NCBI GenBank assembly: GCA_000934665.2
Contig: JYFJ02000264.1
Location: forward strand, 62,001-126,000
Direction: 5' to 3'
DNA from: Catajapyx aquilonaris
Lineage: Eukaryota
Length of the DNA: 64,000 nucleotides
Part shown: piece by piece, positions 10,337-62,355 of the stretch
Layout: every line of letters starts with the position of its first letter
Position numbering within the stretch: position 1 is the first letter of the stretch
The notes under the pieces: generated by a model
What the model was told of the DNA's origin: nothing
Seen by the model: the letters and a program-made list of their open reading frames with translations, nothing else
The model's database searches: none
Position numbers and translations under genes: made by a program

Positions 10337-30810
<20,474 letters not shown>

Positions 30811-37400: not shown

Positions 37401-38674
37401 AGATCCATCCCTGGTGTGCATTTCTGGAAGTCAGTCCAGCAAGGGATGCTTTAAGGTTCTGGACAGCTTGGCACCTGCTGAAGAACGGCGTGTGGAGGTG
37501 TGGGTCAGGGCACCAGATGTGGAAGAGGAGACCACTCTGAGGATGGTGATGTACTATGAATCAGAAGGTGGCAGGGCAAGGGTTGACAGGCACAGCTCAG
37601 TGATTGAAGCCAAAGGTGGGTTGAGGGTGAGAGCAGCAGCAACCAGATGTTTGCCCAGTGATAATGGAGAGGAGGAGGGAGAGGAGGGATTGAATGTGGC
37701 ACTTCAAGTGAGGAACTGTAGAGGAGAGGAAGATGTGAATATCACCAGGGTATCATCTCTTGGAAAAGGATGGGTGCTATCTGAGCAAACCTCGCAGTTG
37801 ACTGGTGAGTCATGTTATATGCCCTTCTACTTTGCCCTGAAACATTCGTTGACCTAACCTGTAGGGCAATGATGGTACACTTAACTTCACAAATGCAAAA
37901 TTGTACTAGGCAGTTGCTTGTATGAACATGGAAATGCACCTTTGCTTTATAACAGACCTGACATTTCTCTTATTTCCAGCTGTACTCTTAAAAGCACAAG
38001 AGGAGTGTCTCATGAGCTTGAAAGCCCACTGGCAGGGCAGCCTGACAGGTGAAACAGTGGGCGACATCTCACTCTCTGAAGACTCTCTTAATTCACTCTC
38101 TACCACTCCTCGACTTGAATTCTGTCGTCAGTGGCTTGGTGACCTACCAACTCCACCCATGACCTTGATTGTTGCATGGTCATCTGGAAACTCAGAAGGT
38201 CAGCATCACTCCACAGTCATTCTCAATGAAACCACAGGCCACAATGTGGTGTCCTATGGGGTTACACACCAACGGAGAATTTCTCACTCATTCCGGAAGA
38301 GGAAGGTGTGTGTGGTTCCAGTTACATTACACCTTCAGAACTGCAGTGATTCAGAGGTTGTCATCACTGTTGATGCTGTGTCGCCTAGGAGTCTGGCCTA
38401 CAAGAATCGACTATATTCTCCCAAGAGTTCTCAATGTGTCAGGTGGGTTGGGAGATGTGTGGCTAAAGAAAAAGTTGAAGCTCACAAGCAAGGGTCAGTG
38501 GCACTGAGGGCAGCTGTATCGAGGCCAGGTACATACGACCTTGCTGGGCTGCAGGTCTCTTGTAGTGTTGGAGGTGAAGTCAAAGTGCAGGCCTGGCAGC
38601 TGGAGAGTACCCTGGTGGTGACCGATGTGGATGGAGTCAGTTCGGGTTGCGGGCAGTCCGATCTCATGGTCTAA
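31476..38674 (+). CDS. TRAPPC8: trafficking protein particle complex subunit 8 (TRAPPIII, Trs85 homologue), 8 exons, 1230 aa
   Basis: Exons 31476-31618, 31808-32054, 32130-32720, 33212-33841, 34978-35163, 36523-37078, 37160-37804, 37980-38674 sum to 3693 nt; recognisable motifs MAQC, TPWFESWRECFLQ, DHEFTKHYLAC, APELQVRRLGDLCF, DQAWMHYAGALEMAA, SALLLEQAAHCF, RKYAFHAVLAGHRFSKAGQ; AATAAA near 38786. Confidence 0.96.
32838..32910 (+). mobile_element. degenerate tRNA-like SINE head in TRAPPC8 intron 3
   Basis: A-box-like TGGTTTAGTGG and B-box-like GGATTCAAATGC at tRNA spacing; cloverleaf imperfect; different from the 2740/20039 family. Confidence 0.5.
35496..35545. mobile_element. hAT (Charlie-like) terminal fragment
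   Basis: CAGGGGTGGGCAAAGTGCAGCCCG resembles hAT-Charlie termini; a second hAT-like end GGAACCCCTGGTTGAGAA lies near 36173-36190 in the same intron. Confidence 0.4.
35906..36071. mobile_element. right-end fragment of the Tc1/pogo-type MITE also found at 42972-43565
   Basis: Near-identical to 43391-43564 (GCCAGCACTTCGAGTT...AAATTCGAGTTAGGGAAGTTTATTTCCTATTATTTTACATTG); ends CTTATAGAAGTTTTACTG followed by TA. Confidence 0.8.
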
Positions 38675-40578
38675 AGTTATGGTGCAATGTCCTTTTCCTA
38701 TGCTTAGCCATGAATTTTAGAAGTCCTTGTTTTGTTTTTGTAAATACGGAGTTAATGCACTGAGCTGGAGTTATGGTGGTTTTCGTAATAAATATATGTG
38801 CAAAGTTACACATCTTATTTTATTTGGATGTTAATACAGTATTTGATTTAACAATGTAATTAAGTTGTGTATAAGTGCTGATAATTGCATGATGGGCATT
38901 TCCATGATGCATCTGTCCGTTCGTAACGCAAGTTTTGCCTACGTGCACAAGTGTATTTTATTATAACAATGCCAGGATGCATGCACTGCATGCTTAATCC
39001 ATTTCATGCAATGTGTGTGTATTGTTACAATAAAATGCGCTAGTACATGTCGGCCAAACCTGCGTTACGAATGGACAGTATGTCTGTGTTTGCGTGGAAA
39101 TGCCCTGATGCAGTGGGCCCTCCATGTATGTGGAATCATTGTAAGTAATCTAGAGATTTACTTAATGTATACAGGAGTATGTGCATATAGATTATATGCA
39201 AATCCTGTGTCATTGTACACTGCATAAAGCACTTGAACATCTGCAGCTTTTGCTATCTGCTGGAACCAATCCCCCCATTGACACGGGACCCACTGTATAT
39301 TGCAACACCACTTATTCGAAATGAGTTATACTTTCAATGTGCTGAGTGAAGGCCTTCATCTGCCAGAGCTTCGAGTGTCCTCAGTCTATACTCATCCTGA
39401 TGAGGGGTTGTGGTTGGATCCCTGTGCCAACCTCCCTGTCCCTGTACCTTCTAGCTGGCCCCCCTCTTCCCAAAAGCAATTCCCAATAACCACACTTCAG
39501 AGTACTCATGTTTGTATCCTCATCCACTGGAGTAGGAGGGAGGTCAGTTTCCTAACGAGAACAGCATGAAACGGCTGGATGGAGAGCATTGGGTTGTGAT
39601 TATGCACCCTATCTTTCAATAATTCGTTACCATATGCCATATGGTGAACTCACTGCTGATCATGATGCCCTGACGTGAATATAATTGTACTTACACAATG
39701 TGTAACTACTTATGGTCTTATGTCATGGATCTGAAAATAATTTTATTGCTTCAATTGTATGAACCGTTACAATGCAGTATGAAATATGGATTTTGGTCAA
39801 CTTGAGGTTACACCCCCATTTGAATTATACTTGTAAGTTATTAGTGCAGCAAGCTCAAGTGGCATTTATCAGCCATTGTAAGTTGGTTCTACTGGATTTT
39901 ATCATTACAAATATACAATCCTTCACTGGGAAGGCTGTAGGCAGGTAGACAATTTTCAAAAGACGATCCCCGGCATTCTCTCTCTTTCCCATCTTCGACG
40001 CGTGTTCGAAGCGCGGGAAAAAGGTCCTGACCAATGATAGCGGAGGAGACGAAGGAGGCAACGTTCCAGTCTCAGATCGGGGGAGCTCCACTATAGCTCC
40101 ATATCCCTGCCTTCTCCAGAAACATCCAGGTAAGATTTGAGCTAATAGCCGATAACCTCCGAAATTTTGTGTGCTTGAGACGCGACTGCGTGAGGGACAT
40201 CCTCAACCCCTCATACGTGTCACACACGAGCATAATTTAGCATCATTTCATCCACATTTTACTGAAACGAAACACCTGTTACGGCCGTGTAATTTAAGCA
40301 CAATCCGTCATGATTTATATGGAAATTACCGGTTGGGAATGCACCTCTCAGACTGTAAACTAGCACTGCAGTGTTTGTATTTAGGTCAAATCGATATCGT
40401 CACGTTGAGGTGGAGTGGGAATTATGATCAATGACGATGACGGCCTGTCCACATTGCAAACTTTGCGCCTGCTCCTGGCCGTATCAAGTGCTGATGTTAT
40501 ACTTGATCAAATATTACTTTTTTCTACTTCATTTGACGTATTGGTTGTGGGTGTTCCCGCAGGCTGGGAGCGTGGTCC

Positions 40579-41737
40579 ATGATGGCTGTTGAAGCTCCTC
40601 AGGTGCAGTCTCCTGTCGAAGCGGTCAGGAGGTACTTGGATACTGTCCCTCAGGACTTTTCCGTCCGGGAAGAGCTATGCAGTTATCGGTTTTGGAAGGC
40701 GGCCAGGGCAGAGGTCATGGCGGCTATGTTTTTGGTCATTTTCGGATGTTCGACAGTACGTTTTAAAGCTGCCAGGAATCGTATTTTGATGTGTACGATA
40801 CTGACAGTTTTGAGCGTGTCGCCTACATTTGACCCCGCAATATTGTATCTAGATCACATCACCTTCCGATGACACATGCCATCGGTGCCTCAACAACTGC
40901 ACAGCCAGGAGTCATCCCGTTGGTCGGTCATCATCCGGAAGTGACTTGAGGGCAGCCTTGGCCTTGGGTTTCACGGTGACCACCCTGGTCCAGTGTGTGG
41001 GCAACGTCAGCGGGTGCCACTTGAACCCTGCGGTGACGGTGGCCATGTTGGTCACCAGGAACATCTCCCTCCTCCGGTCGGCAGTCTACGTTATGTGTCA
41101 ATTCCTGGGGGCTCTGCTAGGGGCACTGGTCCTGGGGTCACTGGGGTCGGAGGCAATGGGGGTCACCTGCGTTGGGGTTGGAGTGTCAGGGAGCCAGGCC
41201 TTCGGGGTGGAGTTTCTGGCCACTTTCCTGGTAGTCTTTGCCACCATGGCCACTCTTGAGCCGCAGAGGTTGGATGCTGGGTTTAAGGCAATGTCCATTG
41301 GTTTGTCCTACACAGTGGGACATCTTTTCGGGGTAAGTTCGGGTAGGAACTCTTTCATTAGTCTATTAACACTTTTGTTTTTGTACAGTATGAATATACT
41401 GGCGCCAGCATGAATCCAGCGAGGTCACTGGGTCCTGCAGTCGTGTTTAACACATGGGACTACCATTGGGTAAGTTTAGAAGACAATGCGAAGATTGTCT
41501 CATGATTGGTGCTTATTGGCTTCTTCACAGGTGTATTGGGTAGGGCCCATCCTGGGAGCTATTTTGGCTGGATTTACGTACGAGTACACCCACGATTCAT
41601 CACCGCAAGGTCACTTTCTCCGGAGGTCATTTCGAAGGAAGGGCAATTCACGTGACCTGAGACGGGAAGTGAGCATGTTTAGCAGCAACACAATGGAGCT
41701 CAACACTCCTTGTGGAAGCCACGATGGAAGGATGTAA
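40579..41737 (+). CDS. aquaporin (MIP family, AQP4-like/Drip-Prip-Bib grade), 4 coding exons, 314 aa
   Basis: Exons 40579-40755, 40853-41332, 41389-41469, 41531-41737 (945 nt); FWKAARAE, SGCHLNPAVT, GVEFLATF, YTGASMNPARSLGPA, HWVYWVGP; probable non-coding first exon ending at the CAG|GTAAGA donor at 40129. Confidence 0.95.
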
Positions 41738-44337: not shown

Positions 44338-45991
44338 TCACTTGCAAATACATGTTGTTCGCCACCAGGCCACAAAGTCGTTGAAACAGAGAACAAATGC
44401 ATCACGATACGCTCCAACTCTGAAAGTGCAAATTTAATAATTTTTAAAATATTCAAGTCCAAAAGTTACCGTAGTGTTAACACTACTAAATCGGTGTGAT
44501 TTATGAAACACTTACCTGTTGTTTAATAAGATTATATTATTATCGATGACCCACATTCATTACCTGAGCACATAGGAAAAAAAGTCGAACACATTATGAA
44601 GAATGGCGATCAGATGCACGTAGGGGTAGACTGACGGCTTCTCAGAAGTATCCCAAAAACTCAGGTACATGACAACGTAGGGCATGGCTGATACTGTGAA
44701 GGACCCAGCCAGGAACAGGAACAAGATAAGCAAGCGTTGTTCTCTCACCACCAGTTGTGCCTTTGTTGTAGATCCAAGTTCACTGTTTGATCAAATTGAA
44801 GGATTACCAGTAGGCTACCATAGTGATTTTTAAAATATTATCTGGACTTTCTGGAGGCTATATACTCGTACACGTAGAAAGGAACTACTTACGGAATAGT
44901 TGAGATTTCTTTTTGACTAAGCTTTAGTTTGACTACAATGAAAATGAGGGAGGTGACCATAACAGTCCAGGACGTGAGAAATGCCAATCCCACGTAAAGG
45001 TTGATCCGAATCCATGCCGATGATTGGAGCAGAATACATTGGCCGGCTTTGGGACTGTAGCCGAAAGTGCCCTGATCCTGGAGAAATTATATTAAATGTT
45101 GTCAATTACACAACGAGGTATCATAACGGAAAAAGAACTGTTGAAGATGCACATTTCATTTTCCATTCACATGTTTGGAAGCGCCATTGTCGTCATTTTT
45201 TTACATAGCAGATTATAGGCCTTTTATTGTAGCAGGTTATTATATGTAGGCCTGTACCTCAAGGTAGAGGAGCGAAAATGGCAGGAATGAGAAAATCCAT
45301 ATTCCCAAAATTGCTTGCAGGCCGTGGCACTTCAAAAATAACCGTCTGTGGAGAGACTTATTCCATAGCATCAAAGCTCTGAAAGGATAAGATTGCATAA
45401 AGTTTCTTAGCCTGATTCTTTTGACGTGTCCATGAATATTGCCTTGCCTGCAGAGAATAATTGTCGCAAGTGTATTCCACAGTAAAAGTCCCAACGAACA
45501 ACGCAAGAAGGCAAGAAGCTGACAGGAAGTCTCACCATAGATCCAGCCTCCTCGAATGTAAGTTAGGGCAGCCAGTGGAAGAACAAAGGTGCAATACAGG
45601 CAGCTGGAGAGATTCAGGTTCAGCAACAGAATGGTGGTTATTCCCCGAAGTGGGCTGCACAGATTCATATTTCAGCGTCGGGTTAATAAATCCGAATATT
45701 TTAAATTGCTAGGACATGTTAGAGTAAGTTTTCTAAGACAGTAGGGACGAACTTGTAAGGATCCTTGCATTGTCTTCTTGCGTACGGAAGCACAAAAAGA
45801 CACAAAAAGTTCCCTATGCCTCCGAAGGCAGAAATTGTTAACAGATAAGGCACCGCAAAGTTGATAAATGTTTCGGACAAGTCCGGGAAGCAACATATTG
45901 TGTCAGAATACTTTTGAACACAGGCCACAGACACTTGTACAATAGTCCAATTACACAAAAAATCCGAGTTGTTGAAACGAGCTTCCACCAT
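44338..45991 (-). CDS. divergent class A GPCR (Tre1/Moody-like), paralogue A, 6 exons, 350 aa
   Basis: Exons 45991-45753, 45654-45448, 45378-45258, 45077-44893, 44782-44564, 44419-44338 (1053 nt); seven hydrophobic segments, TM1 GN, WIYGETSC, ECL2 FGYSPKAGQC, REQR before TM6, helix 8 YRDAF; intron 2 has a GC donor. Confidence 0.85.
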
Positions 45992-46633
45992 CACTACTGC
46001 AATCTACGCGTATTGGGGCGGCTGATTATTATTATTATCGGAATACAGCATGCACGCAGTATATGTGCTGCCACTGAATGTGCACAGTGTTGCTTTGTAT
46101 GTACACTGGGTGTTAGGCAAGTGTTTCATTGTGGACAGTATCCTGCATTAAGTCAGTAAGCAGGATGTAAAAGAAACTACAAATAAGTGGATGTCCTATA
46201 CTGCTGTATATCAAGAGCTAGCCCTTGTGTATATAAGTATAGAAATGAAAGGAGAATCTGCTTTATGCCATTATGACAATGGTTGCTCATTACTATCACA
46301 AATATATACAGTATTTAGGCTTCGTGAGGGGATACACAATCATGATATACTCGTAACTGGTTTGTTAACGTAACTTATTGCTAGCATTCAATGCAATGCT
46401 AAAGCTAAGGCAGTAGGGGGGAAGGGGCGGCAAGGGGAAGGGGAATGGGACAAACCGACAAACCTTCCCCTTTATGTAATTGTATAAAAATACCATATCG
46501 ATTTCCTTTACCTACATTTAACACGTTACCTATTACCGCTATTGGCAGGATGTTAGTCGTGACCATGTCGTGACAGTCAGAATTTAATGGGTCTTAAATG
46601 AATCAGAACACTGCACTGTCCTGCTAAACCATT

Positions 46634-48404
46634 TTATTTCAATGACAAGGCACCATACAATTTTCTTTTCATGGACGTTAAGAAGAATATCAGTGCACTT
46701 CGGTAGTAACTGGTTCTGAAAGAAGCAGTCATTCCGTGTCAGTACTCAGTAATAGGTCATAACATTAGCCATATTTTTTAATACCTAAGAAAGTAGATGC
46801 AGAAGCTGATAACCACATGAGTTGTTGCTAAGATATGCATGTAGGAGAAAGCTGTGCTGCTGGAATTCTCCCAGCAGCACAAGTAAGTGAGGACAACAGG
46901 TAGTATTGGCAGTATGAATCCCACTGCCAACAATGTAAACACCAGAGCCATTCTCCTCTCTCTTGCGAGTAACTGCTCTCTTGTTGATAAACTCACGTCT
47001 CTACATATTACTTACATGTACATATTACATATATATACATCACTAACATCAGTAACGACAATGACAAAGTGAATTAAATACGCTACTTACGCAACTGACG
47101 TGACTTCTTTTCTGCTGCGATGAAGTTTGATCCACAGTAGGACAAAGGATATGACAGTGACAAAAAATGGTATCATATCTGAGATTCCTACTGTCAAGTA
47201 AGCTCTTTCGCTCTTTCCAGGCATGATCATGCACTGACCAAGCCTGGCATTGTAACCGAACGTTATGTCGTCCTGTAGAAAATGTAAGAAGAGCAGACTT
47301 TAAAAATATATTTTTTTTTGTGTGACTCACTTGAAAATTGCCAGAAGATGACGGACAAAATACTGTACATTATGACATCACTTTATGCTGCCGCGTTTCA
47401 AAGGAAAGTACCGTTTGGCTGTATAAATTCGTGAACGCTTTTACACAATAGCCAATATCACACAATAGCATACATTTTTGTTTTTGCAACTAATGGACAC
47501 AAATAAAATGCTTTTAGGAGCATATTTCGGACCAATATTGCAACAGACGGAGGAGTATTGGCAGCGAGATAGCTTTCCATAGGATTTTAAATATACGATG
47601 CCACTGTTTGGTTGAAAAATGCTTTGCTTTTGACGGTTTTTCCAAGACACCTAAGATACATACGTACATTCAGAAAAAGCAGGGCATATGCGATGAAAGA
47701 TATTGCCCACAGGCACGCTATTGCCGGAACACCTCCTATTGTTTCGAACGCTATTTTATAAGCAAATGGAGACCAGTTATGAAGAGCGCTGTAATCATGA
47801 GGAGCTAATTACTGTCACTCTACAATATGTTAATGGCATTATTTATAAGTAGGTGAAAAGTACTCACCTGCTAAAAATCATAGTAGCCACGTTATTCCAA
47901 CTTGTCATTGTTAATGTGCGACGTGTGTAAGCCATTACATGACATAGCGTATGTCCATATGGCCAACTACGGTGAATATAGGTCATCCCAATAAGTGGAA
48001 GGATAAAGCAGCAATATATGACTTCGGAAAAACTGTAGCTGATGAGCAAGAGCGTGCTGAAATTTCGCCCATCACTGAAAACATTTTGCATAATGTGTGT
48101 TAGTCCATTGCTAACTACAAAGGGTATACGCCAACCTAACCGTACTGCACCTGATTCCTGACTCCTTGAAGTGATATTTCCAGGCATAAGTAAGTACTCC
48201 CAAGTTGAGCAAGTTCTCCACGGTACCGACCACAGCTATCAATAGGTAAAACACTGACGCAAACTGAATGAAGTGATCCGAGAATCCAGGATAGCAACAT
48301 TGGGGTATAACTACCAAGTCGAGACATGCCTCTGACAAATTTGCACCATTGTTAGAGCACCACAAAGAACTGTTATGTAAGGCAGGGATCGGATCAGGTG
48401 CCAT
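46634..48404 (-). CDS. divergent class A GPCR, paralogue B, 6 exons
   Basis: MAPDPIPALHNSS start; same intron positions and phases as A; WPYGHTLC, FGYNARLGQC, RERRM, YYRSAL; frame open across all six exons. Confidence 0.87.
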
Positions 48405-48789
48405 GTCTGTGCCCCTATACTAAACTGCACTAATTGTTTCATTTTGAAATGCGCAATAAAATGTGTAGCTGTTGAGCAGGATGTGCTCCCAGGCGTTGAA
48501 AAAGTACAATAGTTGAGTTGTCGGAAATGAAAATTAATGATGCATAAAGTTTATAAATAACCTAAGTTAATGAACTATATTCGTTGACTGTTGCACTTTC
48601 AAAGTGACAGAGCTATTGCATTCGCAGGGATCATGCAGGGCATTTATGATAGTCACCTGAATACTGGCAAACCTCCAAAGTCGGGCCATGCAGGGTGTTT
48701 CATAAATATTTAGAAAAGCTTATACGTTGGTCTCCTTCGCACCAGAGAATCACTCCAGCCATGTTTATAGCTGGGTTGGAAGCCAATTT

Positions 48790-48865
48790 ATTTATTCATT
48801 CATTTTAAATTTTTCTTTTGAATACCCCGTGATAGGGGGAGACCCTCTTGGGGGGACAGATCCAC
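48790..48865 (-). mobile_element. isolated 3' end of the SINE (or its partner LINE)
   Basis: Minus strand CCCCCCAAGAGGGTCTCCCCCTATCACGGGGTA plus A-rich tail shares the TATCACGGGGTA terminus with both full SINE copies. Confidence 0.55.
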
Positions 48866-49902
48866 AAAAACAATGAAGAATGTATACAAAGCAAGAAAAA
48901 GTAACGAAACGCGAGAAAAAAGGGTACTACATGTGATATGCGTGACGCGACATGTGATAAACTTTTATAATGTACTTTTTATTTGTGAATCATTTCAGTA
49001 AGACAGTAACAATAGGTGTTGAGCTCAACTACTGACATCTATCTCTCTTAAAGTGAATAATAATATATGGTGCCCATGTGCCAATAGTTTTCTCTTCATT
49101 CGTCTGAATCATTCTAATCACCGTTTGTGCGGGTGCTGCATTTTTTTTTGGGGGGGGGGGGGGAATATCCCTGTTGTGATTACTATTAAATCCATTAATT
49201 TTGTCTTATTAAGAAAACCTGATATGATTCTAAATATTGGAGGGACGTTTCTATTGTCGTCAACTATAGTGAGTTATAGTCTACAAGTAGTTTCCGGTTG
49301 GAAGCATTGTGTTTCCGTATGATTGGGCACCAGCTTATCGCTCAAACAGTTTTTGCTTGAGAAGGATTTTCTGTACATAAAACTACATAATCTCTATTTT
49401 TAGAGCCACGTCTCACTTCTCACAAGTGCTGCGTTCAAAGAGTGATTATAATTATTCTTCATATAAGGATTAAATTAATTACTAGTTCCTGGTAGAGTCG
49501 TTCATGAAACCGTGTCATATAATTATGGTAATACTTTTGGTGTGCATGTGATTGGGTATAGTATAGGAGGGAAAATGCTTGGAACGTTGGATCTTCATTT
49601 TAGTTTTTATAGTAATGGTGAATGAGGCTCCAAGTGGTTTTCCAAGTACTAATAGGCCATTACATATTGTCATAGCTAGTTTGATAGTATAGGGAACAAG
49701 TAACATAGCAGTCAAATGCAGGAAAATAGCATGTTGTTGGAAATGAAGCAGCCCGGATTGATATCAGTTGTGAAGGGGAGACTGAAGAATGTAATATTCT
49801 CTCAGGAGTCTATGCAAGCAGAAAGTATATTGCCACCATTGCAAGGTTTAATAATAAAGTCAATCAGCAACTCGTATTTAAAAAAAATGCTGTAGTGTTT
49901 TA

Positions 49903-51544
49903 TTACGAATCATCCGTTTGTGTGGAAATAAAATTGCGAAATCTTCTTTTGGTATCGTTGAGAAAAAACTTAATCGCACTTCGGTAATAGTTGACTCTGA
50001 AAAGCAAGGTAAAAAATTAACTGCAACATTAAATATTTAGATTATGTCAATTATTTACAACGGTTATCGCGCAATGGATATTAAAATACATGCCACATGA
50101 GTTCCATAAATTAACTGCCATTTCATTGATATGGTTATTTCCACAATCTCTATATGCGCTTATTTTGCACTTGCCCATCAAAGAAATACGGTATGTTGAA
50201 GATAAATGTGTTTGTGTTGTTAAGCAGTATTAAGTTAATTTGAGTTCCCTAAAAGAAAGTGACACATACACACACGATAAGGTATGAATATGACTTACCT
50301 CATAAAATAGACCCAAAAGTCTATAATCACGTGGCTCATGGCTAGAGCGTGCACATATGCGAAGTAAACTGCATAAGAATTTGTCCAGCAACAGAATACT
50401 AATATGATGGCAGGCAGTACTGGGAGAAGGAAGGAGAGTGCCAGAGCTGCAAACAAAACAGCGGTCCTTCTCTCCCTGATTAACAGCTGTTCCACTGTGG
50501 AATGTCCCACCTCACTGGAAGGAAATATTGAGTCAGAGCTTGGTCAGAGGAACGTTTAATATCGGGATGGCCATTTCTGGAACTTACCCAAATGAAGCCA
50601 CTGTTTTTCTACTGCACCACATCTTGATCCAGAGAAATATAAATGATATAATGGTGACGAAAAAGGGAAAGATATCAAGTAATCCCACCACGACGCTTGC
50701 TAACTTGCTTTGTCCAGGAATGATCATGCATTGACCAATCACATAGTTGTATCCAAAAGTTACTTCACCCTGAAGAAAAGGATATGACTGTGTAGGTTTT
50801 CTTTTTACATAATGTGGTCAATACAATGACTCCCGCAGATATGCTCACATCAGCAAATAGAATTAAACAAGTCATCCATGATATAATCCACAAGCATGCG
50901 ATGGCTGGTAAACCTCCCATGGTCCTGAATATGACTTGATAAACAGTCGGAATCCACAAGTGGAGCGCACTGAATTGAAATATTTCATCTTACTAGTTAG
51001 TACAGTGTCATTACTTAGTGATCTACTCCGTCACTCACCTACTAAATATCATAGTTGTCACGGTGCTCCAACTAGTCATCCCTAATGCTTGACGTAGATA
51101 AGCTTGTATAATGCATAAGGTATTGCCATACCGCCATCCCCGGTTAATATAAGTCATTGCTATTAATACCAGCGAAAATGAGCAGTACGTAAATTCAGAT
51201 ACACTGTAGCTTATAAGTAGTAGAGTGTTGAAGCTCCTGCCATGGCTGTAAATGACACGATTCATTACACCCTATGGAGAAACAGTGAAATGAATGTATT
51301 ACCTGTACGAGTCGCTGTATCGACACAGCCAAGCATAGCTCAAAACTATGATGTTGAGTAAGTTTCCCAGACTTCCGATAACAGACACAATCACATAATA
51401 AACCGACGCAAACAAGACGAAGGCAAGGGAAAAATTCGGAAAGCAGCACGTTGGTATAGGATCTAACTCCACACATGTTTTCGACAAGTTCACAGTTTCA
51501 CCACTACACTCGGCAGAAATTTCTAGCAGAGTATTATTGTTCAT
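49903..51544 (-). CDS. divergent class A GPCR, paralogue C, 6 exons
   Basis: MNNNTLLEISAEC start; LGNLLN, WRYGNTLC, FGYNYVIGQC, RERRT, DFWVY, YYRSAI; phases consistent. Confidence 0.87.
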
Positions 51545-51952
51545 AGGGAACCCCGCACGATGCTGCCACTGATATTGCACCTTTGACAATGGCCTTTGCC
51601 CAGCAGTTGACGTTTGTCGTCAGCAGTTGCGTGTGAAAGAGAAGGATGCTAAAAACAATGCCGGATGGCGTAACTCAAATAATTGATACACCCAATAGTT
51701 CGTACTTCTCATTGTGATAGTGTAGCGGATTACATTATGATTGTGTGTAACGAGTAAAGTAATTATTGCTGCAGTTTGATTTTTAAAATGGAGGAAGAAT
51801 TGATGTCCAATGATGCACCTGAGACGGTCTATCGCAATCGCATCTATATGCTTCGATCTGATTATAATCATTGCATTCTAGATCGAACTACGTGGTCTGT
51901 TCCTTCAACTTGTTATTGCACGAGTGGCAGTGTGGATTTAAATGACGTCTTT

Positions 51953-53544
51953 TTAGCACAGGGGAGGAATTCTATGTGTTTTTCTGCTCATATCGGTGAA
52001 GAAAAACTTCAACGCGCTGCGGTAGTAACTCAATCTGTGAAACAGAAGCAATTATTATGTTAATGATGTTGTCATACTTCAAAGGCTAGGGAAATTACCT
52101 AACGAAATATACGAAAAAGTCGATTATGACATGGGTTGTTGATATGACATGCGCATACGTAAAAATAGACTTGTGGGAATCTTTCCAGCAGCAATATTCT
52201 ACAATCACAACTGGCATAACGGGTAGAATAAGAGAAAGTGCCAGAAATACAAACAAGCGTGCCATCCTTCGCTCTCGAATTAATAGTTGCTCCATTGTGG
52301 AACTTGCCACTTCTCTGTAACACAAAGTGCTATCAACATATATGGATAAAATATCTGTAAAGTCTTTTAAAAATAATGCTACTTACTGAACAGATGATAT
52401 TGATTTTCTGCTTTTCCTCATTTTGATCCATAGAAATATGAAAGAAACGAGAGTAAGGACAAAAGGAACACTGTCGCAGAGTCCCACGACGATGTTGGCT
52501 GTTTTACTCTGTCCAGCCATGATCATGCATTGCCCGTCCGATATGCTGTATCCTAATGTTACCTGATGCTGGATGAGATTGACATTGTAAAATATGTTTC
52601 TAGCTCCAGTTTCAACCTTTACTATTGCAAAGAATGCCATTATTAATATTTGCCTCAATAAGTCTGAATAATTTTGAAAGCTTGCTTTTTGGCATTTTAA
52701 AATAGTCCTTGAATGTTAAAACAAGTAGTACGTTATACAGGATGGTCCATACTGATGGTAGCTGGATGGTAGCCTACTTCAGATCGCCATATTGCACTAT
52801 ATTATTGGTGTGCTATTTACTTCCTCACATATCACAAGAGATACAATAAGTATACTCACGCTAAGAAAGAGCAGCAGATATGTTGTTAGGGATATAATCC
52901 ATAAAATTGCAATTGCTGGTCCACCATCCATAGTTTCAAAGAGCACGCGATATACAGACGGGTGCCACAAATGTAAAGCCCTGCAGAAAATGTTATTGAT
53001 TCATGACTTATTATGGGCCTGACTGCCTCTTCTCAAACCTGCTTAGTATCATGGTCGTCACAATGTTCCAACTTGTAAATCCTAGTGTGTGTCTAGTGTA
53101 GGCCTGAATATAACAGACGGTTCTGCCATAAACCCATCCTCGATTTAGATACGTCATTCCCATCAGCGAGAGGGAAAATGAGCAGTATCCAAATTCGGAC
53201 ACACTGTAGCTGATGAGCAGAAGAGTGCTGAAGTTTCGTCCATCACTGAAAGACACATCTTACTCGAGTGAAACAAATCACTGGTAATGAAAATAAGAGC
53301 CTTACCTGTATGAATCAGTAAAATGACGCTGCCAAGCGTATATCAAAACAATGATATTTAGCAAGTTTTCAAGGCTTCCCACAATGGCGATTGTAATGTA
53401 ATACACTGTCGCGAACTGGATAAAATAGGGCGAGTATTCCGGAAAACAACAAGGCTCTGGGTGATACAACTCGACACACGCTTCAGACAAGCCATGACTT
53501 GTGTCGTTGCTCCATTTCGTGTTGTTTTGGACACTAGAGCACAT
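51953..53544 (-). CDS. divergent class A GPCR, paralogue D, 6 exons
   Basis: MCSSVQNNTKW start (inferred); LENLLN, WVYGRTVC, LGYSISDGQC, RERRM, DFFVY, YYRSAL; phases consistent. Confidence 0.87.
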
Positions 53545-54192
53545 GGTTGGGAGCACTGATATAGTATGTGTGGTCTTGGCCTGGTCTACACTTAATGTTG
53601 CTAGATGTGTATGTCTGAGTACGTGAAGCACGTGAAGGGTGACAAGGTTGCGAAACAATGGTGTGTAGGTGTCAACAAAACTCATCTGATTGCTATTAAA
53701 TTATTTCATAAGCGGCGGATGAGCCTAATATTAAGATGGTTGGTAAGCAGAACGGATACAATGCGATGTAGTCATTGTGTCACTATATTTTACAATAATA
53801 GTCATCGACGTAATAGACTAAGCCGCCTGATGATGTCGCTAGGCCGATGTAGGTTATATCATATATACGATGGAATTGCTTAATCGTTATGTTACTTTGC
53901 TTCAACGTAAAATTAATATTTCAATTAATATAATATTAATATTAATATTGCAAAATTGTACAAACTAACAAAAACGCATCTTTGCGTTGCACAACTACGA
54001 GCCATTATTTCAAGAACCCTTCTGATGGTTGTATACTGCGAGCAAACATTTTTTTCCATTTTTTGGGATACTTAACTGATTATTATCGGAGGCCATGAGG
54101 CGTCACATGTCACATGTCTATTGATTGGTCACCAGAGACAGAATAAGTGGCGCGTTAGGTGAATCAGAAAAATGTCATGCACAAACAATGAC

Positions 54193-55757
54193 TTAACTGA
54201 CAATATTCAATTTTCTCTTCACGGTCGATAAGAAAAATATAAATGCACTTCGGTAATAACTGATCCTGAAATAAACAGAATTTGTCAGTATTTAGGAATA
54301 TGTCACAACATAAGCTACATCACCTAAGAAAGTAGACGCAGAAGTTTATCACCACATTATTTGTTGCTACGACATGTACGTAGGAGAAAACTGTGCTGCT
54401 GGAATTCTTCCAGCAGCAGAAATAACTGACGACAACAGGTAGTAATGGCAGTATGAACGACGCAGCTAAAAGTGTAAATAGCACAGCCATTCTCCGCTCT
54501 CTTGCGAGTAACTGCTCTCTTGTTGATAAACTCACATCGCTACATAAATCATGTTATGAAATTAACTTCAACAACAACAATATGAATTAATTACGCTACT
54601 TACGCTACTGACGTGATTCCTTTTCTACTGCGATAAAGTTTGACCCAGAGTAGGACAAAGGATATGACAGTGACGAAAAATGGTACCAGGTCTGAGAGTC
54701 CTACTACCAAATTAGCCGTATCGCTCTTTCCAGGCATGATCATGCACTGACCAAGCGTAACATTGTAACCGAACGTTACATCTTTCTGTGGAAATATAAA
54801 GAAGAGAAGCTTTTAAAAATAGTTTTTGTCACTTTAATACCTGGAAACCCAGAATATGGCTGACAAAATACTGTACATTACAACACAATTTATAACTTAT
54901 AATTTATAAACTTGTATCGACGGAATATATTACGGTATGCGTTGGTAAGGTGACTGGAATATAAAGTAATAATTTTTTAAAATATTTTTTACTATCCAAT
55001 CATTTGAAAGATACTCACGTCCAGAAAAAGCAGTACGTACACGATGAAAGATATTGCCCATAGGCACACTATTGCCGGAACACCTCCCATTGTTTCAAAC
55101 GTTATTCTATAAGCAAATGGACACCAGCTATGAAGAGCTCTGGAATAGTAAAAGTCGAATAAATTAATCTCACACATTCAATGTCACATTTATAGATGGT
55201 GAAAGGTACACACCTGCTAAAAATCATAGCAGCCACTGTATTCCAACTTGTCAGTCCTAAAGTGCGACGTGTGTAAGCCATAACTGAACATAGCGTATGT
55301 CCATATGGCCAACCACGGTGAATATAGGTCATCCCAATGAGTGGAAGAATGAAACAGCAATATATCATTTCAGAGCAACTGTAGCTAATTAGCAGGAGCG
55401 TATTGAAATTTCGCCCATCACTGAAAACATTTTGTACACTGTGTAAATGCACAACTAACTACAAAAAGTATACATCAATATACAGTAAAAAGTAGGCCTA
55501 CTGTACCTTAGTGATGTCTCACTGAAGTGATATTTCCAGGCGAAAGAAAGTACTATCAAATTGAGCAAATTCTCCACAGTACCTATAACACCTATGAGTA
55601 GGTAAAACACTGACGCAAACTTGATGAAGTGATCCGAGAATCCTGGATAGCAACATGAGGGAATAACTACTAAATCTAGACATGCCTCTGACAGATTGGC
55701 ACTATTGTTAGAGCACCACGAAGAACTGTTATGTAAGGCAGGAATCGGAGGTACCAT
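54193..55757 (-). CDS. divergent class A GPCR, paralogue E, 6 exons (closest to B)
   Basis: MVPPIPALHNSS start; WPYGHTLC, FGYNVTLGQC, RERRM, NFCVY, YYRSAF; phases consistent. Confidence 0.87.
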
Positions 55758-56294
55758 GTTTGTTCCCACACTAAACGGCACTAAATTTTTGTTATTGAAA
55801 TGTGAACTAGAATACTAGATAATGAATAGCTGAGGTGTCAGGATGTGCGCCAAGGTATAGTATACAATAGTGATGAGATGTCAGAAATTAAATGACGCGT
55901 AAAGTTGGCGCGAAACAAAAGTTAATGAACCTTTTATTGGATGTTGTATTTTCAGAGTGACCTCTGTTTTTTTGACTGATGGGACATGCCAAGCATGATT
56001 TTTTTAAAGTCACCTGTCTCCTGCCAACGGAAATATTCAAGGTCAGTTACTGTAGAGGGTTGAGTCAGAGTGTGATCTCCAGGGCACCAGAGGATCACTT
56101 TATGCATGTTTTTGGCTGTATTGGGAAACTTTTTGAGAATGATTTAATGAATATTATTGCATTTTCTACCAGTATAGAGGTTTTATTTCATCTCCGCAGC
56201 CACGTTATTGGTTTCAAGCTCAAGTAGCAAAATATTCATAATATTCATAATAATAATAACAATAATAATTTTATCATTTTATTTCATATCATTT

Positions 56295-57715
56295 TTACAA
56301 ATAACTACTTGAAAAGCTTCCTCTAACTCGCAAGTAAATACTTCTGAATAAGTACACAAATGCACTTCGGTACCCGTTGATTCTGAAGTTAGAAAATTGA
56401 TTTAAGATGTATGAAAATGCTTGCTAATAGAGTAATGCCAACCTGAGGTAATAGATGAAGAAGTCAATGATGACGTGTATGGAGTATCCCATGTGAAAGT
56501 ACGGATAGTACTGTTGCTTACTTTTGTTCCAGAAAAATATGTACATTATAATCCGTGGCGTTGCCGGAAGAATGAAACATGCAGCAACAAGGCAAAAGGA
56601 TGTTATCATTTTGTATTCTCTCTTTAGCAAAGCATAGGATGTGGACGCTCCTACTTGTCTGAAACAATAACAATTTGAAATAATATGTGGACACAAATTA
56701 TTTAAATTCGAGTAGGCTACTGCAGACTTACTCAATTGAAGAAATACTGCATCTACTAGATCTCACTTTAATCCATATTAAAATGAGTGAGGCTATCGTA
56801 ATTAGGTAAGGAAACAAAGTACAGAATGCGACTAATATGTTGGCGTGCTCTTTCGCTCCGGGCATTATCATGCAATTGCCTGCTGAAGCACTGTACCCAA
56901 ATGAAACATAATCCTGTGGAAAACAATATTTCACTCGTAAGAAAAATAGTGGCAGGTTTTCTGCCACTTAACTTACTGCCGAGTAAAAAAATGCATCTCT
57001 TGTAAGGGACATAATCCATATGAAACAGAGTGCCGGTACTCCCTTAAATGTTTTAAACATTTTGGCATATGCAGATGGATGCCAGAGCTGTACTGATCTG
57101 AAAATGGTTACAAATACATTGTTCATGTATGTATTTTACAGACATGCAGTTTGAATACCGTGTACAGGAGTTATGTTTCAAGCTGAAAAATATTCTTACT
57201 TGCTTAAAATAATGGCCGTTACTGTGTAAATGTTGACGGCTGCAAATGATCTTCCGAAATACGCCATAATTGCACAAAGTGTCTTCCCATAGTACCATCC
57301 ATTGTTGATATAAGTCATCGCAACCAGAGGAAGCACGAAAGAACAGTAGCAGAAATCAGAGACGCTTAAACCAGCAAGTAGGAGTGTCGTGAAATTCCGA
57401 AAGTCTCTGAAATGTATTCAAAGCACTGAAAGTTTTTCATACACATATTGCTTGACTCCGTACTTACCTGAAATTGCTGCAAGATCGGTTTTGCCAAGCA
57501 TATGTGAGGGCAGCTATGTTCACTAAATTTCCGGCGCTTCCGAGAACAGCAAGAGTATAGTAATAAATGGAGGCAAATCGTACAAAATCAGGTGAAGACC
57601 CGAAAGCATAGCAGCATGATGAAACAGGATCAATAGCCACACATGATGCCGAGAAATCTTTCTTTTCGTGACACCACGACGCAGAAAGATTGTTATGCTC
57701 ACCAGGAGAAAACAT
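56295..57715 (-). CDS. divergent class A GPCR, paralogue F, 6 exons
   Basis: MFSPGEHNNLS start (an upstream in-frame ATG at 57766 is possible); AGNLVN, LSVSD, WYYGKTLC, FGYSASAGNC, KREYK, DFFIY, GYRSAF. Confidence 0.86.
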
Positions 57716-57965
57716 GACTAACCAGCCGGAATTGCCTAGCAATGAAATTGGCAGCTGTATAATCATACAAGTACGTCATGACAAGTCGGACAGACTGTCA
57801 GCAAGCAACGATATAATAACTACTGCGACTGGAATGCATCGAATGAGTCTTCGCAATATCTAGGATATCATGAAGCCAATGCAGCAACGTTCTGCGTGTC
57901 AGAAATTCAATGTTATTTCTAAGATGATTCAGGAATGATTCAGAAGAACTTTTGAAATGACACTT

Positions 57966-58730
57966 TTACTTCAGAACGGGATACAAACAGTGTCGACAAT
58001 AATAAGTGGTATTGTAATTTGGCGGGGTTTTAGCCTGGGTGATATCGAAGCACTTGATGCATATTTTGGGGTTACTTTCAACATGAGCGTTTCGGCACAG
58101 GCAGGTTTGGCCATGACTGGATTCGTTGGGCTTCATCTTGGACTTCAAGCATTCGCAGCTGAAGCAATCGTATCCAGTTACAGACTGGACCGAAGTGGCC
58201 TCAGGGCACCAGTCATGAGGAAGGTGTCTGTCTACTCTACGTGCTACACACACCATTTCCTGCGTGTAATGAATAACAAAGAGTGGCATGTAGTGTACCA
58301 GAAGCCAAAACAATACAGTTTTGACTGAAGGGCATATTGCATCACCTGATCTGAAGGGCATTTTATCATTAGTATCCATTTGATGTAAGTAATCACAGTT
58401 CCTGATGGATGAGCTGGCCTGCATTTAAAGAGGTACTGCGACACTGCCACTGCGGAACATTAATTACACCTGTCACATCGCATGTCTTAAAAGTAAGCAT
58501 TAATACTTTGTGTCGACTTACCAGTAGTTGAATCAGGTAATGCGGGTCTTATGAAGCATGGAATAAAGCACCCGTATACCCATAAAGCAACTAAAGCTCC
58601 CAGGATGGTGATAATTGCTACCTTCGCGCTTGAAAATTCTGAAGCAAATAGATTTCATTACTGCCTCACTGTAGAGAATGTTAAAAATTAGATTACTGAC
58701 ACTACTCTTACCAGTCAAAAGGCCTGCCAT
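57966..58730 (-). CDS. orphan Cys-rich secreted or signal-anchored protein, 4 exons, 177 aa
   Basis: Exons 58730-58712, 58638-58522, 58449-58346, 58259-57966 (534 nt) joined by 73, 72 and 86 nt GT-AG introns in consistent phase; MAGLLTEFSSAKVAIITILGALVALWVYGC hydrophobic N-terminus; 15 Cys including CxxCxC, CxC and two CxxC. Confidence 0.62.
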
Positions 58731-60387: not shown

Positions 60388-62355
60388 TCACGGAGACTGA
60401 TTCAATTTTCGTTTCTTCTTCGTGCACCTTCGAATTTTGAGCTCCAAAATCAAAGTCAAGGCAGATATTGTGATTCCTGTCAACCATACCTGAAACATGC
60501 CCTTAAGTTTTGTCACAGTAAGGATCAGGTCTTTGCGGATGTCACGATAATTTTCATTGCGAATTTCTTCCAAATTGGCAATAAAATTAGTGAAGAACTC
60601 ATCCCCCAGGAATTTGTCAATTAAGCCGCTTTCGAATAGAATGAAGACCCATTTGTACAACTGCATGTTCATAGGATCTCCTCGAGATGCCGCAGCAGAA
60701 TAATAAGACTGCAATACCGCCTCTTCGTTAAACCTGACTATGCAATTACCTTCATCGTCAATAAAGTGATATAGCTCCCTTATGAGCAATAAGTCGACTC
60801 CAACGCAAGCAAAATCTTCTGTCAAGGTTTTTCGTATGCAATCAGCTCGCTTTTGAAACATGACTGGATTCTCCATAATTGTAATCAGGTGTTTGATGCC
60901 CGATAGAGTAGCGCAATTTCTAATCAGAACAAATTCTAGCATACTAAGTCCCCACCTAAAAGTAGAGAACAGTAACTCATAAAATGTTTCAGGCAGAGGT
61001 TCACGAGGAGGCCAAGTGAGATACGCCACCAGCTTGGCTTTGTAACCACAAACTATTACAATAGAGAGAAAAAGTAAAACAGAGCCTAATGCGCGAAAGA
61101 CCGAAACCCTAGGCACTGTCTTGGGTTGTTCAATCAAATCTCGCAAAATGTAAGCAATTGCAAATTTGAATGATATGTGATGTTTGATCTTACCCAAGAC
61201 GTAGAAGGCAAAAGCAGCTGTAAATATGTAAGTAAGAAGAACCAACCAAACGGTGGTCTCATAAGGTCTAAATATGACCAGCCAAGTAATAACCCCGCGA
61301 GGCATTCGCGTGAGAAATTTCTTCTGGGTATAAATTACCGGCGGAGTGAGGAATATGGCTCTACTTATCTCAGGGGTAAACCCCATTAGCATAATTATGT
61401 CTGCCTTTTCCCTTTGTACCTCACCAATCATACCGTCCCAGGTTCCGTTTGGGTGTTGAAATTCGATCTCTGCACGTGTGATTTCTTTCAAGTAGAAGTC
61501 AAGCTTGCAATCGCCCAGTTCTTCAAGTAACATCAGTGTTCTCTCGAAAGGGGTCAGGTAGTTTCCACCGTACTTCTTTTTCCTGTCTCTTGCACCGTCG
61601 ATGTCAATTTCTTCGTAAAACACGACCATCCAGATCTTTCCGTTCAGCCTCACAGGTCTATTTCCATAATAAGTTTCAAAATGATGCCTCCGATTCGGGT
61701 CAAAGTAGCCTGTTTGCAAAACGCCATGATGACCTCCACGTATGCAGTAGGGACAGATAGTCATCATCTGAAGGCTTTGGGTTTCTGGGTACATGCGAGT
61801 GACCATCTGGAACCTGATTGAATAGGCTGGAGCACCTGTCAGTACCGGATCTAACGGCTCAAGTCCAGGTCGGAAGTGGAACAGGAATCTGTCATGAAAT
61901 GGTCGAAGTCGTACTGAAGCCAAGGTGTTGATTACTAACTGTGGGAACTTAGTAGTGGATGATGCAATCATCAGGTGAAAATTGCAAAATGTTCCTCCAG
62001 GCCACACTCTTGACTGCAGTTCCGGAGGGATGCTTCTGAAATCCATGAGCTCTTTCTCATTTACCAACCAGCTGTAGTCGTAGTAAGAATGAGTGAACTC
62101 TGTCTTCTTGAGTGTCATAAGAGCCAGGTACAGTTGTGACTGGCGAATCATGATGTCCTGCATAGAGGCACTGAATTTGGGTTCGTCCGTTGAAACAACT
62201 AGGGCACAATCGCGTCCATACTTTGAGTTGAACACTTCGAGCACGAGTTGATGCAAAAGGCTGTCTTCCAAAGACACATTCGTTAGCGTCAAAGGGTAAT
62301 TTGCATATACAGCAGCAGAGCACAGAAAGGCAAAGAGAAGTGGGAAGTGCGTCAT
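60388..62355 (-). CDS. divergent ionotropic receptor (IR, iGluR-related chemoreceptor), intronless, 655 aa
   Basis: Signal peptide MTHFPLLFAFLCSAAVYA; S1 PNGTWDGMIGEVQREKADI; M1 FRPYETTVWLVLL; pore segment LIEQP; YKAKLVAYLT equivalent to SYTANLAAFLT; ESGLI and LKGMF before the last TM helix. Confidence 0.92.
   Translation of the reverse strand: MTHFPLLFAFLCSAAVYANYPLTLTNVSLEDSLLHQLVLEVFNSKYGRDCALVVSTDEPKFSASMQDIMIRQSQLYLALMTLKKTEFTHSYYDYSWLVNEKELMDFRSIPPELQSRVWPGGTFCNFHLMIASSTTKFPQLVINTLASVRLRPFHDRFLFHFRPGLEPLDPVLTGAPAYSIRFQMVTRMYPETQSLQMMTICPYCIRGGHHGVLQTGYFDPNRRHHFETYYGNRPVRLNGKIWMVVFYEEIDIDGARDRKKKYGGNYLTPFERTLMLLEELGDCKLDFYLKEITRAEIEFQHPNGTWDGMIGEVQREKADIIMLMGFTPEISRAIFLTPPVIYTQKKFLTRMPRGVITWLVIFRPYETTVWLVLLTYIFTAAFAFYVLGKIKHHISFKFAIAYILRDLIEQPKTVPRVSVFRALGSVLLFLSIVIVCGYKAKLVAYLTWPPREPLPETFYELLFSTFRWGLSMLEFVLIRNCATLSGIKHLITIMENPVMFQKRADCIRKTLTEDFACVGVDLLLIRELYHFIDDEGNCIVRFNEEAVLQSYYSAAASRGDPMNMQLYKWVFILFESGLIDKFLGDEFFTNFIANLEEIRNENYRDIRKDLILTVTKLKGMFQVWLTGITISALTLILELKIRRCTKKKRKLNQSP

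What the first reader, a model, noticed from the sequence alone, without database searches (positions are those of the whole stretch)
57966..58730. Orphan 15-Cys exported protein sitting 250 bp upstream of the GPCR array on the same strand
Seen: four exons with typical 72-86 nt introns splice in phase to a 177-aa protein: hydrophobic N-terminal segment, then KCRP, KCPSDQEMVC, WCPE, DCFSCEC, TCLC, ICIKC, YYCRHC and two sequons (NES, NTT). It is fragmented over three entries of the ORF track and I recognise no family. Inference: candidate ligand, carrier or accessory subunit for the neighbouring receptors
Basis: partly seen in the sequence, partly recalled or inferred. Interest (0 to 1): 0.7.

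Follow-up and report, generated by a model that had tools for sequence, protein, structure and literature searches.

The report
Orphan cysteine-rich gene beside receptor cluster
A four-exon gene model in an arthropod genome encodes a 177-residue, 15-cysteine protein with no detected relatives that is likely exported from the cell; it sits 250 bases from a row of six receptor genes, but only its position links it to them, so it is probably an ordinary lineage-specific extracellular protein.

Summary
Four minus-strand exons (introns 73, 72, 86 nt) splice in frame to 177 aa with 15 Cys, one N-terminal hydrophobic segment and two sequons; the stop lies 250 bp before the first GPCR start. A gene finder trained only on the neighbouring genes ranks this model first, and 0 of 500 shuffles reach its score. 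No RNA could be checked.

No relative was found in Pfam, PDB, a 1.84-billion-protein library, the ESM Atlas or this scan's earlier windows. That blank says little: the window's TRAPPC8 has a best hit of only 70%, and a true GPCR exon also found nothing. Folds were low-confidence (pLDDT 39 and 55).

The ligand/carrier/accessory idea rests on adjacency alone. The gene was not co-duplicated with the six GPCRs, gaps of 408-1498 bp are normal here, and two sequons arise by chance 15% of the time.

Best reading: a lineage-restricted, likely secreted or type II-anchored disulfide-locked binding protein, independent of the receptors. Rivals: a membrane-anchored zinc finger, a receptor partner, or a wrong 5' model. 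Modest interest.

The parts
58712..58730 (-). Exon 1 (ATG plus 6 1/3 codons); least certain exon
   Evidence: Top model 14.3 bits; an alternative first exon at 58975-58957 scores 10.8; donor 4.8 bits
58639..58711 (-). Intron 1, 73 nt, GT-AG, phase 1
   Evidence: Donor 4.8, acceptor 11.5 bits; retention shifts the frame and truncates at 65 aa
58522..58638 (-). Exon 2: hydrophobic segment (about residues 13-36; signal peptide or type II anchor), C30, C34, Pro/Ser/Thr linker
   Evidence: Only segment with a favourable insertion energy, -1.8 for residues 14-32 against +9.9 for the next best (recalled scale); (-3,-1) site after G29
58450..58521 (-). Intron 2, 72 nt, GT-AG, phase 1
   Evidence: Donor 7.4, acceptor 7.1 bits; two in-frame stops
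58346..58449 (-). Exon 3: residues 46-80, C55 and C76
   Evidence: Open in frame between scored splice sites; no Pfam match
58260..58345 (-). Intron 3, 86 nt, GT-AG, phase 0
   Evidence: Donor 8.9, acceptor 4.9 bits; retention truncates the protein
57966..58259 (-). Exon 4: residues 81-177 and stop; 11 Cys including C112-x2-C115-x-C117, C133-x-C135, C147-x2-C150, C168-x2-C171; sequons N125 and N163
   Evidence: Cys excess P 2e-4 and in-frame codon bias
57820..57859 (-). Possible alternative fifth exon, adding 12 residues and a 16th Cys through a 110-nt intron from 57969; weak
   Evidence: Chosen by a crude prior model, not by the trained one; donor 3.2, acceptor -0.7 bits
57716..57965 (-). 250-bp spacer holding this gene's 3' end and GPCR1's 5' region; no AATAAA or ATTAAA
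   Evidence: 3 of the 7 neighbouring genes also lack both hexamers within 400 nt
56295..57715 (-). Neighbour: GPCR1, first of six intact six-exon class A GPCR genes (array 44338-57715)
   Evidence: Gene models; exon 2 matches Pfam 7tm_1 at E 1e-9, above cut-off
60388..62355 (-). Neighbour: intronless, divergent ionotropic-receptor-like gene, 1657 bp upstream
   Evidence: Pfam Lig_chan E 1.6e-4 and Lig_chan-Glu_bd E 0.003, both below cut-off; distance

Best explanation
This is a well-supported four-exon gene model for a lineage-restricted protein that is likely exported and likely works as a small disulfide-locked extracellular binding module, probably independently of the neighbouring receptors. 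Shown: the reading frame, splice signals, cysteine excess, the single N-terminal hydrophobic segment, and the lack of a paralogue in the window. Inferred: the segment takes the chain into the ER and is either cleaved after G29 (148-aa, 16.9-kDa basic product) or kept as a type II anchor. The chain then folds into two small modules: C55-C98 (two disulfides) and C112-C171, whose CxxCxC / CxC / CxxC / CxxC spacing loosely resembles laminin-EGF and TNFR-type cysteine-rich repeats. It may be glycosylated on two loops, and the odd cysteine would pair between chains. Its likely job is binding another surface or matrix protein (cuticle, matrix, immune or reproductive secretion), like other fast-evolving secreted cysteine-rich arthropod orphans. 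The position between an IR and a GPCR array would then reflect a compact, fast-turnover region.
For: Gene reality. Export: one hydrophobic segment, no second membrane segment, flank charges about +1 (N side) and 0 (C side), Pro/Ser/Thr linker; cleavage-rule site after G29; isolated Cys 55, 76, 84, 98 fit disulfides better than metal sites (inference); phase-1 introns are enriched in signal-peptide genes (PMC1626468, passages), a weak point. A relaxed laminin-EGF-type spacing is met and occurs in 0.1% of 20,000 shuffles of exon 4 (pattern recalled and relaxed after seeing the sequence). Independence from the receptors: no co-duplication, similar gaps between all genes, no similarity to the receptor proteins (best 9 of 300 shuffles among seven comparisons). 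Small secreted cysteine-rich orphans are a described class in arthropods (PMC3574423, abstract).
Against: No transcript or protein evidence. Exons 1-3 have no codon bias. Topology is ambiguous: the charge difference is small and no signal-peptide predictor was available. Strict laminin-EGF and TNFR patterns fail, while a relaxed RING-like eight-cysteine pattern fits almost as well (0.35% of shuffles) and an antistasin-like tail also fits (0.4%). Fifteen Cys is an odd number. No function is shown; independence from the receptors is argued from absence of linking evidence, not from expression or synteny data.
Confidence: 0.55

Rival explanations
1. Membrane-anchored cytosolic zinc finger: the hydrophobic segment is a reverse signal anchor, and C112/115, C133/135, C147/150, C168/171 bind two zinc ions in a C4C4 RING-like way, giving a small membrane adaptor or degenerate ubiquitin ligase.
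For: Eight Cys fall in RING order; the relaxed pattern is met and occurs in 0.35% of shuffles; three CxxC pairs, 3.4%. The only recurrent Pfam signal is a zinc-type CXC domain, E 0.02-0.04, below cut-off. Membrane proteins with C-terminal C4C4 RING fingers exist (SPE-42, PMC3053230, passages). The sequons are not significant.
Against: Strict RING, RINGv, PHD, FYVE and LIM spacings all fail: 11 residues between ligands 4 and 5. The C-loop proline reported for all Drosophila C4C4 RINGs, the N-loop isoleucine and the helix tryptophan are absent (PMC3166285 section 9, compared). Flank charges lean slightly the other way. Five further Cys stay unexplained.
Confidence: 0.15
2. One reading: a dedicated ligand, carrier or accessory subunit of the adjacent divergent GPCRs or the IR, co-regulated or co-transcribed with GPCR1.
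For: Same strand and the shortest gap of the cluster, 250 bp. No AATAAA or ATTAAA in the spacer. GPCR2 and GPCR5 share upstream sequence out to about -370 nt, so GPCR1's control region may overlap this gene's last exon. All six receptors carry a four-Cys N-terminus. Tre1/Moody-type receptors are orphans without known ligands (PMC8177520, PMC10926455, passages).
Against: No co-duplication with five paralogues. 3 of 7 neighbours also lack the hexamers. The RTP-type 3CxxC-plus-His spacing fails, and RTPs are described from jawed vertebrates with an N-terminal finger (PMC8172065). Only one dibasic site, inside the cysteine region, so not a typical peptide precursor.
Confidence: 0.12
3. The gene model is wrong or the locus is not an active gene: only exon 4 codes (for example a 131-152-aa single-exon product), the antisense 123-codon frame at 57957-58325 is the gene, or the locus is decaying.
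For: No RNA support and no homologue. Exons 1-3 lack codon bias. The plus-strand window over this locus gives a 136-aa model at 13.5 bits, close to 14.3 (its coordinates were not printed, it is probably the antisense frame). That frame staying open is mildly unlikely as a shadow, P 0.048.
Against: Single-exon versions score 3.7-4.3 bits. Six splice sites fall in the authentic range and exons are richer in G+C than introns. Synonymous bias favours the minus frame, 8.7 against 1.1-2.7 bits. The antisense frame has no Pfam match above cut-off, and the full codon model, trained on membrane proteins, favours hydrophobic frames (inference).
Confidence: 0.12
4. The four exons are an optional 5' extension of GPCR1, splicing in frame to give a receptor with a signal peptide and a cysteine-rich ectodomain.
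For: 77 in-frame donor/acceptor combinations exist; one (57977 to 57755, 223 nt) would keep nearly the whole protein; the acceptor scores 4.2 bits. GPCR1's frame is open 20 codons upstream of its ATG.
Against: The best fusion sums to 6.5 bits against 13.8-16.3 for the gene's own introns, and the donors (2.3 or less with that acceptor) are below the weakest authentic donor, 2.7. All six GPCRs start at an equivalent ATG and are 348-353 aa. Upstream open frames of 4-52 codons precede the other five as well.
Confidence: 0.04

Closest known systems
Lineage-specific small secreted cysteine-rich proteins of arthropods (for example aphid bacteriocyte-specific secreted proteins, PMC3574423, abstract read; spider candidate carrier proteins, PMC5381604, passages read)
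   Same: Small, N-terminal hydrophobic leader, cysteine-rich, no detectable relatives outside the lineage, found only by reading gene structure or transcripts.
   Different: No sequence relationship shown; single copy in this window rather than a family; no expression data; signal cleavage not shown; longer than most such peptides.
Laminin-type EGF (LE) and TNFR-type cysteine-rich repeats (patterns recalled, not from a call)
   Same: CxxCxC followed by CxC, CxxC and a later Cys pair; relaxed LE spacing met; predicted extracellular.
   Different: Strict LE and TNFR patterns fail: one LE cysteine and the G-x-x-C glycine are missing. No Pfam or PDB match. One unit, not a tandem array.
C4C4 RING fingers (CNOT4 type; SPE-42, PMC3053230)
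   Same: Eight cysteines in four pairs at the C-terminus of a protein with a membrane segment.
   Different: Eleven residues between ligands 4 and 5; C-loop Pro, N-loop Ile and helix Trp absent; topology probably luminal.
Receptor-transporting proteins (RTP1-4, 3CxxC zinc finger; PMC8172065)
   Different: RTP finger is N-terminal and the family is described from jawed vertebrates; spacing with the histidine ligand fails; no zf-3CxxC Pfam match.

Membership tests
Secretory-pathway (exported) protein | Single N-terminal hydrophobic targeting segment, no further membrane segment | tested here: met
   Residues 14-32 score -1.8, next best segment +9.9 on a recalled insertion scale; hydropathy
Secretory-pathway (exported) protein | C-terminus in the lumen (cleaved signal or type II anchor) | tested here: inconclusive
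   (-3,-1) site after G29; flank charges about +1 and 0; no SignalP or topology predictor available
Secretory-pathway (exported) protein | Used N-glycosylation sites and disulfide bonds | not testable with these tools
   Two sequons occur in 15% of shuffles; needs biochemistry
Laminin-type EGF (LE) domain | Eight-cysteine spacing with C-x-C-x5-G-x2-C-x2-C core (recalled pattern) | tested here: not met
   Strict pattern absent, relaxed pattern present
Laminin-type EGF (LE) domain | Profile or fold match | tested here: inconclusive
   No Pfam or PDB sequence hit; models too poor for fold tests, pLDDT 39 and 55
TNFR cysteine-rich domain | Six-cysteine signature (recalled pattern) | tested here: not met
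RING finger (C4C4, C3HC4, RINGv) | Eight zinc ligands with canonical spacing (recalled patterns) | tested here: not met
   Strict RING and RINGv patterns absent; only a version relaxed to 12 residues between ligands 4 and 5 fits
RING finger (C4C4, C3HC4, RINGv) | C-loop Pro, N-loop hydrophobic residue, helix Trp | tested here: not met
   Features from PMC3166285 section 9 compared with the exon 4 translation
RING finger (C4C4, C3HC4, RINGv) | Cross-brace zinc binding in the cytosol | not testable with these tools
   Needs metal analysis and topology assay
RTP family (3CxxC zinc finger GPCR chaperones) | Three CxxC motifs | tested here: met
   C112/115, C147/150, C168/171; occurs in 3.4% of shuffles
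RTP family (3CxxC zinc finger GPCR chaperones) | N-terminal finger with RTP spacing and His ligand; Pfam zf-3CxxC match | tested here: not met
   Finger is C-terminal here; recalled spacing absent; no Pfam hit; architecture from PMC8172065
Odorant-binding / chemosensory carrier proteins (OBP, CSP, NPC2) | Pfam profile match | tested here: not met
   No such family listed at E up to 1 or 10 for exon-level queries; HMMER filters drop most matches above about 0.1
Odorant-binding / chemosensory carrier proteins (OBP, CSP, NPC2) | Helical pocket fold (OBP, CSP) | tested here: inconclusive
   Both models show strands only, but at low confidence
Antistasin-type inhibitor domain | C-P...C-x2-C-x-C tail (recalled, relaxed) and Pfam match | tested here: inconclusive
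   Relaxed tail present, 0.4% of shuffles; no Pfam or PDB hit
Dedicated partner of the GPCR array or IR | Co-duplication with the receptors | tested here: not met
   No second copy by tblastn (best other E 0.52) or blastn (best other E 0.14) in the 64-kb window
Dedicated partner of the GPCR array or IR | Co-expression, conserved synteny, physical binding | not testable with these tools
   No genome held, no related locus found; needs RNA and relatives

The most novel reading that the evidence does not exclude
The gene is a dedicated, co-transcribed partner of the six motif-divergent GPCRs or the IR: a new class of small disulfide-locked (or zinc-finger) ligand or accessory subunit that heads the receptor cluster like an operon, and that can also splice in frame into GPCR1 to give it a cysteine-rich ectodomain. 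That would hand an orphan arthropod receptor clade a testable protein partner.
Probability: 0.1. Interest if true: 0.75.

Novelty: new member of a known kind. Interest (0 to 1): 0.27.

Why it matters
As it stands it is one more unannotated, probably extracellular cysteine-rich protein from a poorly sampled arthropod lineage: useful for annotation, possibly a new small disulfide fold, but not surprising. It would matter if it proved to be a partner of the neighbouring receptors, because Tre1/Moody-type GPCRs have no known ligands (PMC8177520, passages) and a linked gene would give a direct candidate to test. Nothing found here raises that above about one in ten.

Tried and rejected
HOMOLOGY, all exon-level queries. 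Pfam: nothing above cut-off; best preSET_CXC E 0.02-0.04. Word-seeded search of 5.8 billion proteins with exon 4: 1 candidate, none at E 0.1 or better, lengths 83-266 aa only. Full HMMER search of 1.84 billion representatives: 1 hit at E 1.9e-4 (P0002), rejected as four identical Ser/Thr/Ala-rich repeats each matching 11 of 35 residues, a singleton cluster with one CxxC per repeat. PDB sequences: 0 at E 10. ESM Atlas: no usable hit twice. Metagenome and viral contigs: 149 and 2 pattern matches, none confirmed. This scan's findings: no look-alike. The full spliced protein was searched only against the window itself, so exons 1-3 were tested less deeply than exon 4.

CONTROLS. TRAPPC8 from this window has a best hit of 70% among the 120 rows listed, from 8000 candidates scored. 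GPCR1 exon 2, a clear 7tm_1 match, found none of 56 candidates at E 0.01.

EXPRESSION. No RNA holder was listed; this is no evidence either way, and no reads were laid. No genome is held, so paralogues elsewhere and synteny are open.

OTHER. No Rfam match in 56-64 kb. Only short chance-level repeats in 57.5-60.5 kb. PHD, FYVE, LIM, Kazal and cystine-knot patterns (recalled) absent. A second membrane segment at residues 62-76 rejected. No complex prediction was run: adjacency was the only reason, the GPCR was available only as single exons, and neither chain had an alignment. Nine literature searches were for context; none could look for this unnamed protein itself, so no claim is made that it is absent from print. 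No supplements were read.

Full report
OBSERVATION. Two shifted versions of the first acceptor broke the frame. The stop lies 250 bp before the GPCR1 start codon at 57715.

IS IT A REAL GENE? I rebuilt the six neighbouring GPCR genes (348-353 aa, internal exons of 207, 121, 182-185 and 216-219 nt) and used their 30 introns and their codons, plus the IR frame, as a training set that excludes the candidate. The candidate's six splice sites lie inside the leave-one-gene-out range of true sites. Five minus-strand intergenic stretches score 3 bits or less; 13 of 15 plus-strand windows score 6.4 or less, the two exceptions (13.5 and 9.7) overlapping this locus. Cysteine is in excess (P 4e-4), and exon 4 has synonymous codon bias in the proposed frame only. 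Against this: exons 1-3 show no codon bias (P 0.11), the codon null is more AT-rich than exon 4, an antisense frame of 123 codons is open over exon 4 (P 0.048 as a shadow), and the interval was pre-selected. Both ends are soft: an alternative first exon scores 10.8, and a weak fifth exon would add a 16th cysteine. I put the four-exon gene at about 85-90%.

IS IT AN ORPHAN? Every search was blank or spurious, with exon 4 as the main query. Two controls limit what that means. The window's TRAPPC8 fragment has a best hit of 70% (a barnacle, then hymenopterans at 68%), so the organism is an arthropod with no close relative among the rows listed. A bona fide 7tm_1 exon of GPCR1 also found nothing in the word-seeded search. 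A fast-evolving small protein from such a lineage is expected to look orphan. Earlier notes of this scan list several other unassigned secreted cysteine-rich families in the same genome (unchecked notes).

ANATOMY. Residues 13-36 form the only segment able to insert in a membrane (recalled scale). A cleavage-rule site follows G29; the flank charges lean slightly to a luminal C-terminus; a Pro/Ser/Thr linker follows. The first two introns are phase 1, which is enriched in signal-peptide genes (PMC1626468, passages), a weak point since neither sits at the predicted cleavage site. The rest divides into four isolated cysteines (55, 76, 84, 98) and a nine-cysteine block (112-171) built of CxxC and CxC pairs. 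That block meets relaxed laminin-EGF-type, RING-type and antistasin-type spacings (0.1%, 0.35% and 0.4% of 20,000 shuffles) but no strict pattern tested. These patterns are recalled, and the relaxed ones were drawn after seeing the sequence, so they show order, not kinship. RING hallmarks listed in PMC3166285 (section 9 read) are absent. Structure models were poor (pLDDT 39 and 55, strands only) and fold searches uninformative. The two sequons carry no weight (P 0.15).

LINK TO THE RECEPTORS. For: same strand, shortest gap in the cluster; no canonical poly(A) hexamer in the spacer; GPCR2 and GPCR5 share upstream sequence out to about -370 nt, so GPCR1's control region may overlap the candidate's last exon. 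Against: GPCR-GPCR gaps are 408-1498 bp; 3 of 7 neighbours also lack the hexamers; the GPCRs duplicated five times (32-78% identity) without a copy or remnant of this gene; no similarity to any receptor protein survives seven comparisons; in-frame fusion to GPCR1 needs donors weaker than any authentic one. Known accessory or carrier families do not fit: RTP spacing fails and RTPs are described from jawed vertebrates (PMC8172065, listing and passages); no OBP, CSP or NPC2 profile matched. Such receptors are orphans (PMC8177520 and PMC10926455, passages); GPR84, Tre1's closest mammalian relative, is cited as a fatty-acid receptor (PMC13694715, passages and reference titles).

MECHANISM. Most likely (0.55) the protein enters the ER, is released or held as a type II anchor, locks into two small disulfide modules, and binds another extracellular or surface protein, with no special tie to its neighbours. 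Shown: frame, splice signals, cysteine excess, hydrophobic leader, single copy in the window. Inferred: export, disulfides, glycosylation, dimer through the odd cysteine, binding role, independence. Rivals: anchored cytosolic zinc finger (0.15; precedent SPE-42, PMC3053230, passages), receptor partner (0.12), wrong model or inactive locus (0.12), GPCR1 ectodomain extension (0.04).

COMPARISON AND NOVELTY. It works like the small secreted cysteine-rich orphans described in aphids (PMC3574423, abstract) and spiders (PMC5381604, passages), without being shown to belong to any named family. PMC7565164 (passages) confirmed only that LE cysteines are disulfide-bonded and gave no spacing. The scan has not noted this sequence on other DNA. 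Verdict: a real, probably exported orphan; a new member of a known kind; interest 0.27, rising to about 0.75 in the one-in-ten case that it is a dedicated partner of the receptor cluster.

Noticed in passing
window 44338-57715 (-): Six intact six-exon class A GPCR genes, 348-353 aa, 32-78% identical, with near-identical internal exon lengths and a shared four-cysteine N-terminus. Already noted as a separate finding.
   Followed up: partly
window 45447 (-): GPCR6 intron 2 appears to use a GC donor (GC-AG intron, 69 nt) at the position where the paralogues have GT.
   Followed up: no
window 60388-62355 (-): Intronless 655-aa divergent ionotropic-receptor-like gene; Pfam matches below cut-off; exact sequence not in the 15-billion collection.
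   Followed up: partly
window 57957-58325 (+): Antisense open frame of 123 codons over exon 4 and intron 3; weaker codon bias than the sense frame and no Pfam match above cut-off, probably a shadow.
   Followed up: yes
window 55770-56120 and 48420-48780 (-): GPCR2 and GPCR5 (78% identical) share upstream sequence out to about 370 nt before the ATG, marking a recent duplication unit and a candidate control region.
   Followed up: partly
window 31700-38700 (+): TRAPPC8 gene; best database hit for one exon 70% identical, so the lineage is poorly sampled.
   Followed up: partly
window 40500-41450 (+): Aquaporin-like exons with an NPA motif (family recognised from recall; frames).
   Followed up: no
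window about 42000: G+C drops from 0.49 to 0.35 and stays at 0.38-0.41 across the receptor region, against mostly 0.39-0.49 to the left.
   Followed up: no
window 28572-30374 (+): Several long Ser/Pro/Lys-rich open frames (151-275 aa) with no family assigned here.
   Followed up: no
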